In this document: positions 19,629 to 28,200 of the stretch, piece by piece
Layout: each line of letters begins with the position of its first letter
How positions within the stretch are numbered: position 1 is the stretch's first letter
Origin: Gammaproteobacteria bacterium
Lineage (GTDB): Bacteria > Pseudomonadota > Gammaproteobacteria > Steroidobacterales > Rariloculaceae
DNA: 64,000 nt
Assembly (NCBI GenBank): GCA_050485685.1
Contig: JBJHBW010000007.1
Location: forward strand, 5,950-69,949
Direction: 5' to 3'
Made by a program: the position numbers and the translations under genes
The notes under the pieces: generated by a model
The model's database searches: none
What the model saw: only the letters and a program-made list of their open reading frames with translations
Told to the model about the DNA's origin: nothing

Positions 19629-20966
19629 ATGGTTCGACATCGGGCAACAATGCTGCTCTGGCTGATCGCGGTTGTGCCGGGAGCAATCGCGATCGCGTAT
19701 CTGCGTGGCCCAGACCTGCAAAGCCCGGGCGCCATGCTGAATTTCGCGGGAAGGGTGACCGGTATCGCGGGCCTCGCTTTCCTGCTCGTGGCCGCGATAC
19801 TGAGCTGCCGGGTGCCGGGATTTGACCGGCCTTTCGGCGGGCTGACCAAGCTCTGGCAGTCCCACCACAAACTCGGCGGCGTCGCGTTCCTGTTTCTGCT
19901 CGCGCACCCTCTCCTGCTGGCGATCGGCGCCGCAGAAGCCTCGCTGACGGCAGCTTCGCAGACGCTGATTCCGACCACGCTGAACTGGCCCGTGATCATG
20001 GGCTGGATCGCGCTGCTCGCGATGATGGTGTTCCTCGCACCCAGCTTCAAATTCTTCGGCGAACCCGACTACCAGCGATGGCGTAATGTCCATCGACTGG
20101 CAGCACTGGCAGTGGTCACCGGTCTCGCGCATACGTTTTATCTCGCGCGCACGATACCGGATCCGCTGAACACACTGATCTGGCTGCTGCTGGCGCTGGC
20201 TGCGGTGGCCGCAGTCTCATATCGGCTTGTGTTCTCACGACGCATCGGTCGACTTCGCTATACCGTTGCCGAAGTTGCCAGACCCGCCAACAACGTCGTT
20301 GAACTTGCCCTTGCACCGCAGGGCGCGGCACTGCGCCACGAGGCCGGGCAGTTTGTCTATCTCACGCCGTTCGATCGCACCCTGAAAGCGGGGTATGCAG
20401 AAGAACACCCCTACACCCTGTCATCCGCGCCCGGCGAAGTTCATCTGCGCATTGCGATCAAGGATCTCGGCGATGCCAGCCGCGCCATTCAGCAGATCGC
20501 CACGGGCAGCGAAGTGGGCGTGGAAGGTCCGTATGGCTATTTCTTCAAGTCCCCGGAACCACGCACGCCGGAGCTGTGGATTGCGGGCGGCATAGGCATT
20601 ACACCGTTCCTCGGCCGCGCCCGGCACCTGGCAGCGCTGGCTGAGGAGCGCGGAAGCATCGGCCGGACTGCAGCCGAAGCCGACATCATTCTCGTCTACT
20701 GCGTACAGGATGAAGGTCGCCAGCTGTTCGACGACGAATTCCTGGAGTTGACTCGCGTCGTTCCGGGATTCAGGCTGGTCATGCACTATTTCTATCGCGA
20801 AGGGCCACTGTCGCACGCATTCCTGAACGAACACTGTCCGCGACTGTCCGAACGGGAAACCTACATATGCGGCCCGCAACCGCTGGTTGATGCGGCACGA
20901 GGCGCGTTGCTTGCCGGTGGTACGGGCCGCGAACGTATTCATACTGAGGAATTCAATCTCCTGTGA
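19629..20966 (+). CDS. NOX/FRE-type transmembrane ferric-reductase-domain flavocytochrome b with FAD/NAD(P)H-binding domain
   Basis: RBS GAGGAGG. Two His pairs at 13-residue spacing sit in TM helices (HHKLGGVAFLFLLAH; HRLAALAVVTGLAH). It has the FAD motif HPYTLSS and the NAD(P)H motif IAGGIGITPFLG. Confidence 0.85.
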   Translation: MVRHRATMLLWLIAVVPGAIAIAYLRGPDLQSPGAMLNFAGRVTGIAGLAFLLVAAILSCRVPGFDRPFGGLTKLWQSHHKLGGVAFLFLLAHPLLLAIGAAEASLTAASQTLIPTTLNWPVIMGWIALLAMMVFLAPSFKFFGEPDYQRWRNVHRLAALAVVTGLAHTFYLARTIPDPLNTLIWLLLALAAVAAVSYRLVFSRRIGRLRYTVAEVARPANNVVELALAPQGAALRHEAGQFVYLTPFDRTLKAGYAEEHPYTLSSAPGEVHLRIAIKDLGDASRAIQQIATGSEVGVEGPYGYFFKSPEPRTPELWIAGGIGITPFLGRARHLAALAEERGSIGRTAAEADIILVYCVQDEGRQLFDDEFLELTRVVPGFRLVMHYFYREGPLSHAFLNEHCPRLSERETYICGPQPLVDAARGALLAGGTGRERIHTEEFNLL

Positions 20967-22006: not shown

Positions 22007-22384
22007 ATGCACGAACTGCTTGAAGCCTGGGTGGCATGGATAGTCCCCGCGATCCAGGCCGTGGGCGTGGTCATCGTCCTGTGGGGCGTCATCGAAGCGC
22101 TGTTGGCACTGGCACGTCGTGCACTTCAGCGCTTGACGGGCACCCACCCGCGCACCGGGCTTGGCGCCATACGCATCTCGATTGGCCGCAAGATGGTGCT
22201 TTCACTGGAGTTTTTCATTGCCAGCGATATCATTCAGACGGTCGTGATCCCGACCTGGGAGTCGCTGGGCATGCTGGCCGGCATTGTCGCGATCCGCACC
22301 GTGATCGCCTATTTCATCGAGTACGAGATGCGCCAGGGCAGCCCGGATAGGGATGGCGAGGGCGGCGAAAGATCCGGGAAATAG
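22007..22384 (+). CDS. DUF1622-like small membrane protein
   Basis: RBS AAGGAG. 125 aa with TM segments (IVPAIQAVGVVIVLWGVIEALLALA; MVLSLEFFIASDIIQTVV). It starts 14 nt after the methyltransferase gene. Confidence 0.65.
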   Translation: MHELLEAWVAWIVPAIQAVGVVIVLWGVIEALLALARRALQRLTGTHPRTGLGAIRISIGRKMVLSLEFFIASDIIQTVVIPTWESLGMLAGIVAIRTVIAYFIEYEMRQGSPDRDGEGGERSGK

Positions 22385-22441
22385 CCCCGGCTGTGATTGC
22401 CCGACTTGGCCACCGTGCCGCAATGTGGTATCTATAGCGCC

Positions 22442-22525
22442 ATGATTGCGTCCCATACCCGTTTTTACTTTTGGTACTACGGTTTTCCGATGCCGCTGGC
22501 GGAGGAAGGGATGCGGTCGGCCTGA
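22442..22525 (+). CDS. candidate aromatic-amino-acid attenuation leader peptide (27 aa: MIASHTRFYFWYYGFPMPLAEEGMRSA)
   Basis: A short ORF whose codons 8-15 read F-Y-F-W-Y-Y-G-F (22463-22486). It lies upstream of a terminator/antiterminator pair and the DAHP synthase gene. I see no clear Shine-Dalgarno sequence before ATG 22442. Confidence 0.55.
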   Translation: MIASHTRFYFWYYGFPMPLAEEGMRSA

Positions 22526-22551
22526 CAGGAACCGAACGAGCATTTCGAAAA

Positions 22552-22580
22552 AGCCGCCAGCGTCCCTGGCGGCTTTTTTT
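22552..22580 (+). terminator. intrinsic terminator (attenuator) in the DAHP synthase 5' leader
   Basis: AGCCGCCAG (22552-22560) pairs with CTGGCGGCT (22566-22574) around the loop CGTCC, followed by a T7 run (22574-22580). It lies 46 nt upstream of the aro gene ATG. The upstream CGCTGGCGG (22494-22502) can pair with the left arm (22554-22562) as an antiterminator. Confidence 0.75.
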
Positions 22581-22626
22581 ATGTCGCAGGGATTCCCGGG
22601 GCCGATCGACAACAGGAGACTGACCA

Positions 22627-23703
22627 ATGCCCCCGCATACTGATGATCTGAGGATCAGCGAATTCGAGCCGCTGGATCCGCCAGCCGTCGTGATCGACGA
22701 GCTGCCCTGCGAGGAGCAGGTGTCCGCGACTGTCGCCGACGCTCGGCGCACGCTGCATCACATTCTGCATGGCGAGGACGATCGCGTCGCTGTCGTGATC
22801 GGTCCGTGTTCCATACATGATCCGAAGGCGGCGATGGAATACGCCCGCAGGCTGCTGCCGCTGCGCGAAGAGCTCAGTGACGCGCTTGAGATCGTGATGC
22901 GCGTGTATTTCGAGAAGCCGCGCACCACGGTGGGCTGGAAAGGCCTGATCAACGATCCGGATCTGGATGGAAGCTACCGTATCAACAAGGGTCTGCGCCT
23001 GGCGCGAAGGCTCCTGCGGGATATCAACGCGATGGGCCTGCCCGCCGGTTGTGAATATCTCGATGTTATCTCGCCGCAGTACGTTTCCGATCTCGTCGCC
23101 TGGGGCGCAATCGGTGCGCGTACCACCGAGAGCCAGGTGCACCGCGAAATGGCATCGGGTCTGTCCTGTCCGGTAGGCTTCAAGAACGGTACCGGCGGAA
23201 CGATTCGCATCGCGGTGGATGCGATCCGTGCCGCTTCACAACCACATCATTTCCTGGCCGTGATGAAGGACGGCCGATGTGCGGTCGCATCCACGACCGG
23301 CAATCCCGACGTGCATGTGATCCTGCGCGGCGGGCGCAAGCCGAACTACGACGCCGCCAGCGTTGCGGAAACCTGCCATCTGCTGGAGGAAGCCGGCATG
23401 CCAGCGCGCGTGATGATCGATGCCAGCCATGCGAATAGCGGCAAGAAGCCGGAAAACCAGCCGGCGGTAATCGACGATATCGCCCGCCAGATCGAGAACG
23501 GCGAACAGCGAATCGTGGGCGTCATGATCGAGAGCCACCTGGTCGGTGGTCGTCAGGATCTGAGCCCCGGCAAACCGCTGGTATACGGCCAGAGCATTAC
23601 CGACGGGTGTCTGGGATGGGATGACTCGGTTGCGACTCTGCACAGACTGGCGTCCGCGGTGCGCAGCAGACGTGAGGGTGTCGCGAAAGACGCCGCCGCC
23701 TGA
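22627..23703 (+). CDS. aroG: 3-deoxy-7-phosphoheptulonate (DAHP) synthase, class I (AroF/G/H type)
   Basis: RBS AGGAG. 358 aa with the conserved block YFEKPRTTVGWKGLINDPDLDGS and typical length and termini. Isoenzyme specificity cannot be assigned. Confidence 0.9.
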   Translation: MPPHTDDLRISEFEPLDPPAVVIDELPCEEQVSATVADARRTLHHILHGEDDRVAVVIGPCSIHDPKAAMEYARRLLPLREELSDALEIVMRVYFEKPRTTVGWKGLINDPDLDGSYRINKGLRLARRLLRDINAMGLPAGCEYLDVISPQYVSDLVAWGAIGARTTESQVHREMASGLSCPVGFKNGTGGTIRIAVDAIRAASQPHHFLAVMKDGRCAVASTTGNPDVHVILRGGRKPNYDAASVAETCHLLEEAGMPARVMIDASHANSGKKPENQPAVIDDIARQIENGEQRIVGVMIESHLVGGRQDLSPGKPLVYGQSITDGCLGWDDSVATLHRLASAVRSRREGVAKDAAA

Positions 23704-23706
23704 TTC

Positions 23707-24384
23707 GTGACACGCCGCACCGCCGCGACTGACATCATCCTCGCAGTCGCGCTGCTGCTGGGGCTGAGCGCGCTGGCTGGTCCGCTGATCTCATCGCTGC
23801 CGGAGGATCTGCTGCCGCCTTTGCTCCTGATCGCCATCGTGCAGGGTGCGATCGTGCTCACGGTGGTCGCAGTGCTGCTGCATCGCCGCGAACAGACGCT
23901 GCGTTCCATTGGATTGCTGCGCCCTGCCACGCAAGACCTGCGGCGCGGGTTCTTCGCCGTGATGATGGCGATAGGCCTGTCGTTTGTGTTCAACCTGATG
24001 GTGCTGGCCGTTGCGCCTGATGCATTCGATACCCACAGCGAAAGGCTGACACAGGTCGCCGGCGCGCTGGCTTCCGATGCATCACTGCCTGCGCTGTTGC
24101 TGGCAGTCATGCTGATCGGCTTCTACGAGGAAGTGCTTGCACGCGGGCTGCTGCTGCATCGCAGCCGAACGGTGTTTCAGGGCCACTGGCCGCCAGTGCT
24201 CGCATCCTCGCTGCTGTTCGGTCTGGGGCATGTCTATCAGGGCTGGACTGGCGTGGTGCAGACCATGCTGATAGGCATGCTGTTTGCCCACCTGACGATA
24301 CGCTGGGGAACGCTGTGGCCGGTCATCATCGCGCACGCGGCGCTGAACGGTTTCTCTATCGCCGCGCTGAATGCAATGAGCTGA
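23707..24384 (+). CDS. CPBP-family intramembrane glutamic endopeptidase (CAAX protease-like)
   Basis: GTG start 3 nt after the aro stop. Motifs EEVLARGLL (EExxxR), FGLGHVY (FxxxH) and HAALN, in a polytopic membrane protein. Confidence 0.8.
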   Translation: MTRRTAATDIILAVALLLGLSALAGPLISSLPEDLLPPLLLIAIVQGAIVLTVVAVLLHRREQTLRSIGLLRPATQDLRRGFFAVMMAIGLSFVFNLMVLAVAPDAFDTHSERLTQVAGALASDASLPALLLAVMLIGFYEEVLARGLLLHRSRTVFQGHWPPVLASSLLFGLGHVYQGWTGVVQTMLIGMLFAHLTIRWGTLWPVIIAHAALNGFSIAALNAMS

Positions 24385-25867: not shown

Positions 25868-27505
25868 TCAATAACCTGCAGCCTGACCGTCCTTGCGCGA
25901 CTCGGAAGCACCAAAGTACACGCCGCGCCGGCCGTCGCGCAGTATTGCCTGATAACCGCCGAAGCCGTAGCCGTTGTCGGCCTCCACCTGATGGCCCATT
26001 GCGCTCAGGCCTTTGGCCACCTGCGGCGGAAATCCGGCTTCCAGATGCACACTGCCGGTGCCAGTGGCCGTCTCGCCGGTGGGCGCTGACGAACCGTCGT
26101 GACGCAGGCGCGGTGCATCGCCCGCTTCCTGCACGTTCAATCCGAAATCGATGATGTTCTGCAGCACCTGCACCTGGCCCTGCGGCTGCATGTCGGCACC
26201 CATCACACCGAAGCTCAGCGCGAACTCAACGCCTCTGGTGACAAAGCCGGGAATGATGGTATTGAAAGGTCGCTTGCCGGGCGCGTAGGCGTTCGCATGG
26301 CCTGCATCCATCGCAAACAGTTCACCGCGATTCTGCAGCATGAACCCGAACTCGGGCACGACCACACCCGATCCCATTCCGCGAAAATTGCTTTGTATCA
26401 GTGACACCATCATTCCGTTCTCGTCAGCAGTGGTCAGATACACCGTATCGCCCGACTGCAGCACGCGCGGATCACCCGGCGGCACGATGGACGCTGCGCG
26501 CTTGAGATCGATCCGATCGCGCTGCCGCTGCACATACGACGGGGACAACAGTTCAGCTGCGGGAACGTCGTAGAAATCCGGATCGGCATAGTGGCGGGCA
26601 CGATCCTCGAACGCAAGTTTCTTGGCTTCGGTCAGCAGGTGAAGATAGCTCGGAGACTCCCGCCCCATTGCAGCCACGTCCCACCCCTCCAGAATCCTCA
26701 GCATCTGCAGGACTGCCAGCCCCTGGGTATTGGGCGGCAACTGCCAGACGGTGTAGCCGCGGTATTCGCATTGCAGCGGCGTGACCCACTGCGAACGGTG
26801 GGAAGCGAGGTCGTCCCGATCGAGAAAACCGTCCATTAATCTCATCTGGCGGTCTATTGCAGCGGCAATAGCGCCGTCATGGAATGCCCTTCTGCCGTGG
26901 ACAGCGATCAATTCGTAGGCGTCAGCGAGGCGCGGGTTGACGAATACGTCACCGCCGGCCGGCGCATGACCGCCGGGCATGTAGATATCGGCGACGCCGG
27001 GGAAGTGGCGAAGCCGGCGTGCATTGAGCGTCCAGTATCCGGCAATGATGTCGCTGACCGGAAACCCCTCACGGGCATAGCGGATCACCGGCGCCAGAAT
27101 ATCGCCAACCGGCAGACGTCCGAATCGGGCGTGCAGTTCGAACCAGGCGTCGACCGTGCCCGGCACGCTCACTGACAACGGGCCGTACGCGGGCATGCGA
27201 TCATGGCCTGCGGCTGCAATGTGCGCACGCGTGAGGCGACGTGGCGAGCGGCCGCTGCCATTGATCGCGCTGATTTTACCGTCGACGTAGACGAGCGCAA
27301 ACAGATCGCCACCAATGCCACAGCCGGTTGGCTCCATCAGACCCAACGCGGCATTGACCCCGATCGCGGCATCCACGGCACTGCCACCGCGCGCAAGGAC
27401 AGCAAGTCCGATCTGTGTGGCCAGCGCCTGGCTGGAAGCCACCATCGCGCGGCGCGCGGCCACCGGCGATCGTGTGGCGAAGTGTGCTCCGAACGGTCGT
27501 TCCAT
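25868..27505 (-). CDS. ggt: gamma-glutamyltransferase-family protein (no obvious signal peptide)
   Basis: 545 aa. The autoprocessing/nucleophile region is GDTVYLTTADENGMMVSLIQSNF. The N-terminus (MERPFGAHFATRSPVAARRAMVASS) lacks a hydrophobic signal sequence. Confidence 0.85.
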   Translation of the reverse strand: MERPFGAHFATRSPVAARRAMVASSQALATQIGLAVLARGGSAVDAAIGVNAALGLMEPTGCGIGGDLFALVYVDGKISAINGSGRSPRRLTRAHIAAAGHDRMPAYGPLSVSVPGTVDAWFELHARFGRLPVGDILAPVIRYAREGFPVSDIIAGYWTLNARRLRHFPGVADIYMPGGHAPAGGDVFVNPRLADAYELIAVHGRRAFHDGAIAAAIDRQMRLMDGFLDRDDLASHRSQWVTPLQCEYRGYTVWQLPPNTQGLAVLQMLRILEGWDVAAMGRESPSYLHLLTEAKKLAFEDRARHYADPDFYDVPAAELLSPSYVQRQRDRIDLKRAASIVPPGDPRVLQSGDTVYLTTADENGMMVSLIQSNFRGMGSGVVVPEFGFMLQNRGELFAMDAGHANAYAPGKRPFNTIIPGFVTRGVEFALSFGVMGADMQPQGQVQVLQNIIDFGLNVQEAGDAPRLRHDGSSAPTGETATGTGSVHLEAGFPPQVAKGLSAMGHQVEADNGYGFGGYQAILRDGRRGVYFGASESRKDGQAAGY

Positions 27506-27609
27506 ACTCAGTCCCGAGTCTGCGATTGCCGACAGCGCGTCGAAGAACGCGTGCTTCTGGCAGAATTGGCAGTCTCATCCGTCATTCGATCATCCGGGAA
27601 TTCAAGTCA

Positions 27610-28200
27610 ATGTCTCACCGTACGCATCACCTTCCGCCGCTGCCCGGGCCGCTGGGCGCACTGCGCGAACTGCGATATCACGAATCGTCGCGCCAGGGGC
27701 TGGGCATACTGCTGGTGCTACTTTATACGATTACCGCGCAACCGATGGCGACACTCGCGACACTGGGCCTGATACTGGCTGCCGTCGGCACCCTGTTTCG
27801 CTTCTGGGCCAGCGGTTACATCATCAAGAACCGGGAACTGGCCACACTGGGTCCCTACGCGATGGTCCGTCACCCGCTTTACACGGGTAACATCCTGATT
27901 GTGGCAGGTTTCGCGCTGGCCAATGCGCAATGGTGGGCGATACCGCTGGCACTGCTCTTCTTCTGGTTCTATTACCCGCCGGCTATCGACTACGAGGATC
28001 GCAAGCTGCGTGAGATTTTTGAAGAGAAATGGGACCACTGGGCAAACGGCACACCGGCACTCATTCCGACCTTCCGTAAGCTCGGTGATGCCACCCGCGG
28101 CTCATGGTCGATGCGCACGAGCACGAAGGCGAACGGCGAGATACTCATCGTCATCTACCTGTTCGTCTGCATGGGCGTGATCATCTGGCGGCTGGGCTGA
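27610..28200 (+). CDS. isoprenylcysteine carboxyl methyltransferase (ICMT)/phospholipid methyltransferase-family membrane protein
   Basis: Within ORF 27415..28200 I start at ATG 27610 (MSHRTHHLPPL...). Several TM segments and the family motif GPYAMVRHPLYTGNILI. Confidence 0.7.
   Translation: MSHRTHHLPPLPGPLGALRELRYHESSRQGLGILLVLLYTITAQPMATLATLGLILAAVGTLFRFWASGYIIKNRELATLGPYAMVRHPLYTGNILIVAGFALANAQWWAIPLALLFFWFYYPPAIDYEDRKLREIFEEKWDHWANGTPALIPTFRKLGDATRGSWSMRTSTKANGEILIVIYLFVCMGVIIWRLG

What the first reader, a model, noticed from the sequence alone, without database searches (positions are those of the whole stretch)
22397..22626. Mixed Phe/Tyr/Trp leader peptide with terminator and antiterminator upstream of DAHP synthase
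Seen in sequence. A 27-codon ORF (22442-22525, MIASHTRFYFWYYGFPMPLAEEGMRSA*) has seven aromatic codons within eight positions (TTT TAC TTT TGG TAC TAC GGT TTT). A canonical intrinsic terminator (9-bp GC stem at 22552-22574 plus T7) lies 46 nt before the aro ATG. A 9-nt segment inside the leader ORF (CGCTGGCGG, 22494-22502) has the same core sequence (CTGGCGG) as the terminator's right arm. It can therefore pair with the left arm (22554-22562) as an antiterminator. Established knowledge. This is the architecture of ribosome-mediated attenuation (trpL, pheL). In E. coli, however, the aroF/G/H genes are controlled by TyrR/TrpR and feedback inhibition, not by attenuation. Inference. The first enzyme of the common aromatic pathway may be controlled here by charged tRNA-Phe, tRNA-Tyr and tRNA-Trp simultaneously, through one leader that mixes all three codon types. 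Caveat: I see no convincing Shine-Dalgarno sequence before ATG 22442, and I cannot exclude that such aro attenuators were already predicted in comparative studies.
Basis: partly seen in the sequence, partly recalled or inferred. Interest (0 to 1): 0.62.

Follow-up and report, generated by a model that had tools for sequence, protein, structure and literature searches.

The report
Aromatic leader-peptide attenuator before DAHP synthase
A 27-codon mini-gene packed with Phe, Tyr and Trp codons, followed by a switchable transcription stop signal, sits in front of the first enzyme of aromatic amino-acid synthesis and is conserved in dozens of related bacteria; the mechanism is the textbook one, but I found no catalogue entry or paper for this family.

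Summary
The leader ORF (22442-22525) holds the only 8-codon stretch with at least 7 aromatic triplets in all six frames of the 64-kb window (0.0014 expected by chance). An 8-bp G+C-rich terminator with a T7 tail precedes a class-I DAHP synthase gene.

All 78 related loci that include upstream DNA carry an aromatic-rich short ORF plus terminator about 180 nt before the gene. One type occurs in Xanthomonadales (..FYFWYYGFPxPxAEEG..) and another in Oxalobacteraceae (..FFFTGYFYFS..PKAVE). A covariance model built from the first type finds every tested locus of the second. Flanking genes are not conserved. All alignment gaps in the ORF are multiples of 3.

Only its 5-bp core (GGCGG:CCGCC) is conserved. 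That core closes a three-tier hairpin whose top carries the stop codon. Two protector helices compete with it, and one pairs the start-codon region with the end of the ORF and shows covariation.

The missing Shine-Dalgarno has an explanation. An extended -10 box lies 6-9 nt before the start codon in 42 of 43 sequences, so the leader is probably leaderless.

This is a new member of a known kind. The closest precedent is aroR-aroF in Corynebacterium glutamicum. No experimental data exist for this family.

The parts
22406..22411 (+). -35-like hexamer TTGGCC, 17-nt spacer to the -10
   Evidence: Read from the sequence. A TTGGC-like block stands at the same place in the closest relatives. The consensus scan did not call it.
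22426..22434 (+). Extended -10 element TGgTATCTA; its 3' end lies 7 nt before the leader ATG
   Evidence: TGnTATC(A/T)A lies 6-9 nt before the leader start codon in 42 of 43 distinct Xanthomonadales-type sequences. The transcription start at or next to A22442 is inferred, not measured.
22442..22525 (+). Leader ORF, 27 codons plus TGA: MIASHTRFYFWYYGFPMPLAEEGMRSA
   Evidence: All 58 gap runs in the ORF part of alignment A3 are 3, 6 or 9 nt long. No Pfam or NCBIfam family matches.
22463..22486 (+). Sensor codons F8 Y9 F10 W11 Y12 Y13 (G14) F15; all three Phe codons are the rare TTT
   Evidence: Chance expectation is 0.0014 per window. Phe codons in the leaders are TTT 89 and TTC 26; in the adjacent aroG genes they are 15 and 214.
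22444..22454 (+). 5' arm of protector helix P0 (start-codon region); pairs with 22508-22518
   Evidence: Seen in the minimum-energy folds. On A3, 72.9% of cells are paired, against 28-39% when the partner is slid. There are 30 double-change cells, reached by 1 of 500 shuffles.
22485..22507 (+). Local protector hairpin P1 (regions 1:2): UUCC/GGAA plus UGCC/GGCG. It sequesters the GGCGG core of the antiterminator.
   Evidence: 83.6% of cells are paired, against 38-66% when slid, with no compensatory changes.
22494..22502 (+). 5' arm of the outer antiterminator stem, CGCUGGCGG (conserved core GGCGG, 22498-22502)
   Evidence: Core pairs are present in 33-34 of 34 sequences; the outer four pairs in 12-24 of 34. 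The U:A to C:G change occurs in 3 sequences. In two of these (L006, L033) the terminator's right arm changes as well.
22508..22514 (+). 5' arm of the middle antiterminator stem, GGGAUGC (pairs with 22540-22546). The same bases form the 3' arm of P0, so the two structures exclude each other.
   Evidence: 68% of cells are paired, against 33-47% when slid. One column pair reads AU 12, GC 11, GU 7.
22517..22535 (+). Apical hairpin of the antiterminator; the stop codon UGA (22523-25) sits at its top
   Evidence: Per-sequence folds give an equivalent hairpin with a different sequence in each lineage, for example CUGAAG/CUUCAG in Xanthomonas.
22540..22546 (+). 3' arm of the middle antiterminator stem, GCAUUUC
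22553..22580 (+). Intrinsic terminator: GCCGCCAG, loop CGUCC, CUGGCGGC, then U7. The left arm overlaps 22554-22562, which is the 3' arm of the antiterminator.
   Evidence: 98.5% of cells are paired, with 5 double-change cells reached by 0 of 500 shuffles.
22614..22618 (+). Shine-Dalgarno sequence AGGAG of aroG, 8 nt before its ATG
   Evidence: Read from the sequence.
22627..23703 (+). Regulated gene: class I-alpha DAHP synthase (AroF/G/H family), 358 aa
   Evidence: PF00793, 316 bits. TIGR00034 aroFGH, 529 bits. The AroG equivalog scores 547 bits, below its cut-off of 568, so allosteric specificity cannot be assigned.

Best explanation
This is a ribosome-mediated (leader-peptide) transcription attenuator of the DAHP synthase gene.

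Transcription probably starts at or next to A22442, so the leader mRNA begins with its AUG and is translated without a Shine-Dalgarno sequence.

When charged tRNA-Phe, tRNA-Tyr and tRNA-Trp are plentiful, the ribosome runs through codons 8-15 to the stop codon at 22523. There it occupies the inner part of the antiterminator. Behind it, the GGCGG core (22498-22502) is captured by the local hairpin P1. On untranslated RNA, helix P0 (22444-54 with 22508-18) also forms. The left terminator arm therefore stays free, pairs with 22566-73, and RNA polymerase stops at the U7 tract.

When an aromatic aminoacyl-tRNA is scarce, the ribosome stalls in 22463-22486. It covers or breaks the protector helices, and the three-tier antiterminator forms: 22494-502 with 22554-62, 22508-14 with 22540-46, plus the apical hairpin. 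This holds the left terminator arm, and transcription continues into aroG.

Shown here: the sequence features, their conservation, the mutually exclusive pairings, and covariation for the terminator and P0. Inferred: the transcription start, translation of the leader, stalling, the kinetic order of folding, and which amino acids are actually sensed.
For: - **Not chance.** The aromatic codon run is unique in the window, with 0.0014 expected.
- **Conserved with aroG.** An aromatic-rich short ORF plus terminator lies about 180 nt before aroG in 78 of 78 loci that include upstream DNA, from Xanthomonadales, Oxalobacteraceae and others. The flanking genes of the window are absent from all 80 loci.
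- **Translated.** All 58 alignment gaps in the ORF are multiples of 3. Phe, Tyr and Trp replace each other while the nucleotides vary.
- **Terminator.** 98.5% of cells are paired and compensatory changes are reached by 0 of 500 shuffles.
- **Antiterminator core.** It is invariant. In L006 and L033, region 2, the left arm and the right arm change together.
- **Antiterminator energy.** With the right arm removed, every one of 34 sequences folds into the same three-tier hairpin. The mean is -27.6 kcal/mol, against -14.8 for the terminator stem.
- **Protector P0.** 72.9% of cells are paired, against 28-39% when slid; 30 double changes are reached by 1 of 500 shuffles. In all 43 sequences the GGCGG core is paired within the ORF-only RNA, with probability 0.6-1.0.
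- **Leaderless start.** An extended -10 box lies 6-9 nt before the start codon in 42 of 43 sequences.
- **Rare codons.** TTT makes up 77% of Phe codons in the leaders and 6.5% in aroG.
- **One family.** Model R1, built from the Xanthomonadales type only, hits the expected site in all 34 other loci (E from 5e-12 to 4e-4) and only this site on the + strand of the window (137 bits).
- **Precedent.** C. glutamicum aroR-aroF (PMC11802643; PMC4046766).
Against: - No transcript, ribosome or reporter data exist for this organism or, as far as I could find, for any member. The window comes from a mine-tailings metagenome with no RNA runs. Logan contigs of Xanthomonas RNA runs showed nothing about transcript ends.
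- Equilibrium folding does not separate the states. On the full RNA the terminator always wins. On RNA lacking the right arm the antiterminator always wins, even with a ribosome placed at the stop codon. The switch therefore has to be kinetic or steric, and that was not tested.
- With a ribosome at the stop codon, the outer 5' arm (22494-502) is already free behind it. Termination under sufficiency then depends on P1 forming first, and P1 shows conservation but no covariation.
- Support for the outer and middle antiterminator stems is moderate.
- Stalls at codons 8-10 would not cover P1.
- In C. glutamicum only Phe, not Tyr, limitation had an effect.
Confidence: 0.87

Rival explanations
1. The attenuator is real but is effectively a Phe sensor (or Phe plus one other). 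The Tyr and Trp codons add little, so the 'three amino acids at once' reading is wrong.
For: In C. glutamicum aroR (F-Y-F), Phe limitation but not Tyr availability changed transcription (PMC11802643). The related Oxalobacteraceae leaders are Phe-dominated (mean 5 Phe, 1.7 Tyr) and only 9 of 33 have Trp. The rare-codon bias is stronger for Phe (TTT 77%) than for Tyr (TAT 38%).
Against: All 43 Xanthomonadales-type leaders keep 1-2 Trp codons, and 42 of 43 have Phe, Tyr and Trp together. The TGG column is at least 90% conserved. Any stalled ribosome within codons 8-15 should act alike in the model.
Confidence: 0.3
2. The short ORF is not translated. The RNA is a riboswitch or a protein-binding or tRNA-binding leader, and the aromatic codons are a by-product of a U-rich RNA motif.
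For: There is no Shine-Dalgarno sequence. Parts of the 'peptide' (P-x-A-E-E-G) are conserved at the nucleotide level, including third positions.
Against: Gaps occur only in multiples of 3. Aromatic residues are exchanged for one another while the nucleotides differ. The stop codon keeps its place at the top of the apical hairpin. The -10 box keeps a fixed distance to the start codon. No Rfam family reaches its gathering score in the window or in 18 relatives.
Confidence: 0.04
3. The ORF encodes a functional aromatic-rich micropeptide with its own terminator, or a small RNA, that is merely linked to aroG and does not regulate it.
For: The peptide's C-terminal half is well conserved. Attenuator-derived transcripts and peptides can have functions in trans in other bacteria (abstract of PMC7968998, listed).
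Against: The conserved C-terminal codons coincide with RNA pairing partners. The element always lies directly before aroG on the same strand, whatever the neighbouring genes. The leader shares its GGCGG segment with the terminator arm in both lineages.
Confidence: 0.05
4. Chance ORF next to the terminator of the upstream gene (DUF1622, 22007-22384).
For: The terminator lies downstream of a gene on the same strand.
Against: The chance expectation for the codon run is 0.0014. The whole unit is conserved with aroG, whereas DUF1622 and the downstream Rce1-like gene are absent from all 80 loci. A conserved promoter lies between DUF1622 and the leader.
Confidence: 0.01

Closest known systems
aroR-aroF leader-peptide attenuator of Corynebacterium glutamicum (Neshat et al. 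2014, as summarised in PMC11802643; first seen by Mentz et al. 2013, PMC4046766)
   Same: A short leader ORF with aromatic codons (Phe-Tyr-Phe) lies upstream of a DAHP synthase gene. Ribosome stalling raises transcription of the downstream gene. It is the only experimentally supported DAHP synthase attenuator that I found.
   Different: It is from a different phylum. Its sensor is much shorter (3 aromatic codons, against 7 of 8, and no Trp). Homology could not be tested because I did not have its sequence. Only a Phe effect was reported there.
pheL-pheA and trpL-trpEDCBA attenuators of Enterobacteria (Rfam Phe_leader RF01859, Trp_leader)
   Same: The logic is the same: sensor codons, a protector (1:2), an antiterminator (2:3), and a terminator (3:4) with a U tract. 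Phe_leader is the best Rfam match.
   Different: The match scores only 21.6 bits against a gathering score of 55 and is driven by the terminator. Those leaders control terminal-branch genes with a single codon type and have a Shine-Dalgarno-led ORF. Here the common-pathway entry enzyme is controlled by mixed Phe, Tyr and Trp codons. The start is probably leaderless, there is a second long-range protector helix, and the stop codon lies inside the antiterminator.
Computationally predicted attenuator before aroF(aroA-I-alpha-Y)-tyrA in Vibrio (Merino's attenuator database, cited in PMC1173090, Table 7)
   Same: A predicted terminator/antiterminator lies in front of a class-I DAHP synthase gene in a gammaproteobacterium.
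   Different: It is known to me only as a table entry. No leader peptide is described there, the operon differs (aroF-tyrA) and so does the lineage. In E. coli these genes are controlled by TyrR and TrpR (PMC5343134).
Leaderless sensor ORFs in attenuators of Actinobacteria (C. glutamicum ilvB leader 'without a ribosome binding site', cited in PMC4046766; mycobacterial polycysteine leaderless ORFs, bioRxiv 10.1101/834739)
   Same: A leader peptide translated from a 5'-terminal start codon serves as the amino-acid sensor.
   Different: Those are in Actinobacteria and sense other amino acids. Here the leaderless start is inferred from promoter spacing only, in a gammaproteobacterial lineage in which 14% of Xanthomonas mRNAs are leaderless (PMC3300014).

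Membership tests
Ribosome-mediated (leader-peptide) transcription attenuators | Short ORF with a cluster of codons for the end-product amino acid(s) of the regulated pathway | tested here: met
   7 of 8 consecutive codons are Phe, Tyr or Trp, in front of DAHP synthase. The run is unique in the window and conserved in 78 of 78 loci.
Ribosome-mediated (leader-peptide) transcription attenuators | Intrinsic terminator (G+C-rich hairpin plus U tract) between the leader ORF and the structural gene | tested here: met
   22553-22580. 98.5% of cells are paired across 34 sequences, with compensatory changes.
Ribosome-mediated (leader-peptide) transcription attenuators | Antiterminator that uses the 5' arm of the terminator and excludes it | tested here: met
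   22494-502 pairs with 22554-62. The core is invariant and changes together with both terminator arms in L006 and L033. A three-tier hairpin forms in all 34 folds. Covariation of the outer and middle stems is only moderate.
Ribosome-mediated (leader-peptide) transcription attenuators | Protector (anti-antiterminator) pairing that a stalled ribosome would disrupt | tested here: met
   P0 (22444-54 with 22508-18) shows covariation. P1 (22485-22507) is conserved. The GGCGG core is paired in the ORF-only RNA of all 43 sequences.
Ribosome-mediated (leader-peptide) transcription attenuators | The leader is translated, and read-through responds to charged tRNA supply | not testable with these tools
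   Support is indirect only: frame-preserving gaps, rare-codon bias, and the spacing between promoter and start codon. No RNA data were usable.
Rfam Phe_leader (RF01859) / Thr_leader (RF00506) | Covariance-model score at or above the family's gathering score (55 bits) | tested here: not met
   21.6 and 21.3 bits. No family reaches its gathering score in 18 related loci.
Family of aro leaders before class-I DAHP synthase in Beta- and Gammaproteobacteria, defined here by model R1 | Significant full-length match to a model built from other members, at the same place relative to aroG | tested here: met
   The window scores 137 bits, but it is part of the seed. All 34 non-seed loci match at about 40-190 nt before aroG, with E from 5e-12 to 4e-4. 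Part of the score comes from the terminator, since terminator-only hits reach 30 bits.

The most novel reading that the evidence does not exclude
The Xanthomonadales-type aro leader may be a one-shot sensor. The mRNA starts with its AUG, so only a 70S ribosome that loads while the RNA is still being made can read it. Once about 77 nt have been made, helix P0 pairs the 5'-terminal start-codon region with the 5' arm of the antiterminator's middle stem. P0 would then block further initiation and act as anti-antiterminator at once. A single leader enriched in slowly decoded TTT and TAT codons would then report Phe, Tyr and Trp charging together, once per transcript, for the entry enzyme of the common pathway.
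Probability: 0.3. Interest if true: 0.6.

Novelty: new member of a known kind. Interest (0 to 1): 0.45.

Why it matters
DAHP synthase sets the carbon flow into the shikimate pathway. Textbook knowledge of its control rests on E. coli, where TyrR and TrpR repress it and feedback inhibition acts on the enzyme.

The data here indicate that a large group of Beta- and Gammaproteobacteria gates this gene with a leader-peptide attenuator instead. The group includes Xanthomonas, Stenotrophomonas, Pseudoxanthomonas, Rhodanobacter and Oxalobacteraceae.

The element is missing from Rfam, Pfam and NCBIfam, and its peptide is not called by gene finders. Annotating it would:
- correct regulon reconstructions;
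- explain a roughly 180-nt 5' region before aroG and a possible short terminated transcript of about 139 nt;
- give metabolic engineers a simple target, since removing the attenuator should deregulate aromatic production;
- offer a compact natural sensor of aromatic amino-acid charging.

The probable leaderless start and the start-codon-sequestering helix would add a variation to the classical model.

Tried and rejected
- **RNA evidence.** The window is held only by a mine-tailings metagenome DNA run. RNA runs that hold the Xanthomonas version are available only as Logan contigs, and laying them on L013 gave no information on transcript starts or ends.
- **Equilibrium folding with a ribosome footprint masked**. 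It does not discriminate the states, so I do not use it as support.
- **RNAalifold on MAFFT alignments**. It recovers only the terminator and the GGCGG:CCGCC core, because the interior is too variable to align. I used per-sequence folds and explicit pair counts instead.
- **Consensus scan for promoters and terminators**. It missed both the promoter and the terminator.
- **Weak Rfam hits** (Phe_leader, Thr_leader, BcKCsr2 and others). They are far below threshold and mostly driven by the terminator.
- **Exact look-up of ten leader peptides** in the 15-billion-protein collection. None is on record.
- **Supplementary TSS tables** of the Xanthomonas dRNA-seq paper are not held.
- **Panina et al. 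2001 and Vitreschak et al. 2004**, the comparative studies most likely to have predicted such attenuators, are not held. Prior prediction cannot be excluded.
I could not ask whether this genome has other DAHP synthases.
- **Second aromatic-rich stretch at 27952.** It lies inside a 261-aa ORF and is not a leader.

Full report
**1. The observation**

- ATG 22442 opens a 27-codon frame, MIASHTRFYFWYYGFPMPLAEEGMRSA, which ends at TGA 22523-25.
- Codons 8-15 (22463-22486) read TTT TAC TTT TGG TAC TAC GGT TTT.
- The terminator pairs G22553-G22560 with C22566-C22573 around the loop CGUCC. Seven T follow (22574-22580), 46 nt before ATG 22627.
- That ATG opens a 358-aa class-I DAHP synthase (PF00793, 316 bits; TIGR00034 aroFGH, 529 bits).
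- CGCTGGCGG (22494-22502) is the exact complement of CCGCCAGCG (22554-22562).

The codon run is not chance. In all six frames of the 64-kb window (62% G+C, aromatic triplet frequency 0.055) it is the only 8-codon stretch with at least 7 aromatic triplets, and 0.0014 are expected. The only other stretch with 6 of 8 lies inside a 261-aa ORF.

**2. Conservation**

A search with the DAHP synthase returned 80 loci at 68-79% protein identity. They come from Xanthomonas, Pseudoxanthomonas, Luteimonas, Stenotrophomonas, Rhodanobacter and Fulvimonas, from many Oxalobacteraceae (Duganella, Massilia, Pseudoduganella, Rugamonas, Herbaspirillum), from a Steroidobacter and from several MAGs.

Two loci lack upstream DNA. 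The other 78 all carry an aromatic-rich short ORF followed by a terminator about 180 nt before the gene.
- The Xanthomonadales type reads ..FYFWYYGFP(M/K)PxAEEGxRSx, and the window belongs to it.
- The Oxalobacteraceae type reads M..FFFTGYFYFSNSNPKAVE.
- Both types share the design in which a GGCGG inside the end of the ORF repeats the GGCGG of the terminator's right arm.

A covariance model built only from the 43 distinct Xanthomonadales-type sequences (R1) finds the expected site in all 34 other loci. The matches are full-length, with E from 5e-12 to 4e-4. On the + strand of the window it finds only 22442-22580, at 137 bits. Part of that score is owed to the terminator, since terminator-only hits reach about 30 bits.

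The window's neighbouring genes, DUF1622 upstream and an Rce1-like protease downstream, are found in none of the 80 loci. The element therefore travels with aroG and is not the terminator of the upstream gene.

**3. Signs of translation**
- In the MAFFT alignment of the 43 leaders (A3), all 58 gap runs within the ORF are 3, 6 or 9 nt long.
- Phe, Tyr and Trp replace one another between lineages.
- Phe codons in the leaders are TTT 89 times and TTC 26 times. In the adjacent aroG genes they are TTT 15 and TTC 214. For Tyr, the TAT:TAC counts are 44:73 in the leaders and 23:197 in aroG.
- The sensor therefore prefers the rare codons. These are read by wobble (established knowledge), which would sharpen stalling. 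These counts are not phylogenetically independent.

**4. The missing Shine-Dalgarno sequence**

In 42 of 43 sequences an extended -10 element (TGnTATCAA or TGnTATCTA) ends 6-9 nt before the leader start codon, mostly 7-8 nt.

In the window the layout is TTGGCC (22406-11), a 17-nt spacer, TGgTATCTA (22426-34), 7 nt, then ATG. Transcription from such a promoter should begin at or next to the A of the AUG, so the leader ORF is probably leaderless.

This is inferred from spacing alone. Leaderless mRNAs are common in Xanthomonas, at 14% of mRNAs (PMC3300014). The Oxalobacteraceae type has an ordinary 5' untranslated region.

**5. The RNA switch**

*Terminator.* It is paired in 98.5% of cells, and its compensatory changes are reached by none of 500 shuffles.

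Across the family only the core is kept: GGCGG with CCGCC, in 33-34 of 34 sequences. The outer four pairs hold in 12-24 of 34. In L006 and L033 the U:A pair next to the core has become C:G, and the right terminator arm has changed to match. This is a three-way covariation.

*Full antiterminator.* When the right terminator arm is removed, every one of 34 sequences folds into the same three-tier hairpin. In the window it consists of:
- the outer stem, 22494-502 with 22554-62;
- a purine-rich internal loop;
- the middle stem, 22508-14 with 22540-46;
- an apical hairpin, 22517-35, that carries the stop codon.

The energy is -33 kcal/mol in the window. The family mean is -27.6, against -14.8 for the bare terminator stem.

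*Middle stem.* It is paired in 68% of cells, against 33-47% when the partner is slid. One column pair reads AU 12, GC 11, GU 7. This support is moderate.

*Protector P1.* This local hairpin (22485-22507) pairs the F-P-x-P codons with GGCGGAGGAA. It is conserved (83.6% paired, against 38-66% slid) but shows no compensatory change.

*Protector P0.* This long-range helix pairs the start-codon region (22444-54) with 22508-18. It is paired in 72.9% of cells, against 28-39% slid, with 30 double-change cells reached by 1 of 500 shuffles. Its 3' arm is the same stretch that forms the 5' arm of the antiterminator's middle stem, so the two exclude each other.

In the RNA of the ORF alone, the GGCGG core is paired with an upstream partner in all 43 sequences.

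**6. Mechanism (inference)**

With sufficient charged tRNA, the ribosome reaches the stop codon and covers roughly 22508-22536, which is the inner part of the antiterminator. Behind it P1 forms. The left terminator arm stays free and transcription ends at the U tract. Untranslated RNA folds into P0 and P1 and also terminates.

With a ribosome stalled at codons 8-15, the protectors are covered or broken. The antiterminator forms as soon as 22540-62 emerges, and RNA polymerase reads into aroG.

Equilibrium folds cannot test this. The terminator always wins on the full RNA, and the antiterminator always wins on RNA lacking the right arm, even with a ribosome placed at the stop codon. As in the classical systems, the decision must be kinetic and steric.

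Weak points of the model:
- The outer 5' arm is already free behind a terminating ribosome.
- P1 lacks covariation.
- Stalls at codons 8-10 would not reach P1.

**7. What is sensed**

All 43 Xanthomonadales-type leaders have 1-2 Trp codons, and 42 have Phe, Tyr and Trp together. The Oxalobacteraceae leaders are Phe-rich and have Trp in only 9 of 33. Joint sensing of the three amino acids is therefore plausible for the window's type, but it is not shown. In C. glutamicum aroR only Phe limitation had an effect.

**8. Comparison with what is known**

No Rfam 15 family reaches its gathering score in the window or in 18 relatives. The best match is Phe_leader at 21.6 bits, against 55 required. The peptides match nothing in Pfam or NCBIfam, and ten variants are absent from the protein collection.

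In the searchable literature I found:
- the experimental precedent aroR-aroF of C. glutamicum (PMC11802643, PMC4046766);
- a database prediction of an attenuator before aroF-tyrA in Vibrio (PMC1173090);
- regulon reconstructions in Proteobacteria that mention attenuation only for trp and pheA (PMC5343134).

Searches for an aroG leader in Xanthomonas or Betaproteobacteria found nothing. The two comparative papers most likely to contain such a prediction are not held.

Earlier notes of this scan describe the same kind of element before aroG in many other genomes. They agree with this reading, but they are not independent evidence.

**9. Verdict**

This is a real, conserved, classical leader-peptide attenuator on a gene where the E. 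coli paradigm does not have one. It is apparently uncatalogued, has a precedent in Actinobacteria, and is widespread. It is a new member of a known kind.

Its distinctive details are the probable leaderless start, the start-codon-sequestering protector helix, the stop codon inside the antiterminator, and the strong bias towards the rare TTT codon.

Noticed in passing
L013:1257-1279 (and the same place in other Xanthomonas/Pseudoxanthomonas loci); absent from the window: A conserved inverted repeat, GTTGCC-GATGAAACA-GTGGCAAC (in Pseudoxanthomonas GTTGCAGATGAAACATTCGC), overlaps the -35 region of the leader promoter. It may be an operator for a transcription factor acting on top of the attenuator. 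The window and its closest MAG relatives have TTGGCG/TTGGCC there instead.
   Followed up: no
window 23707-24384 (+): A 225-aa Rce1-like CAAX protease ORF (PF02517) starts at a GTG 4 nt after the aroG stop codon, so it may be co-transcribed and fall under the same attenuator. It is not linked to aroG in any of the 80 related loci.
   Followed up: partly
window 19629-20966 (+): A 445-aa ORF has Ferric_reduct, FAD_binding_8 and NAD_binding_1 domains, which is a NOX/FRE-type flavocytochrome.
   Followed up: no
window 22423-22437 (+): A 4-codon mini-frame, ATG TGG TAT CTA TAG, overlaps the -10 box of the leader promoter. It is not conserved in relatives, so it is probably chance.
   Followed up: partly
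window 27952-27990 (+): This is the second most aromatic stretch of the window (LFFWFYYP, 6 of 8 codons). It lies inside a 261-aa ORF (27415-28200), and the surrounding residues are hydrophobic. It is not a leader.
   Followed up: yes
L051:2552-2643, L042:2495-2593, L063:2505-2592 (3' end of aroG in Oxalobacteraceae loci): Model R1 gives 26-30-bit hits just after the aroG coding region. These are probably terminators of the same CCGCC...GGCGG type as the attenuator's terminator.
   Followed up: no
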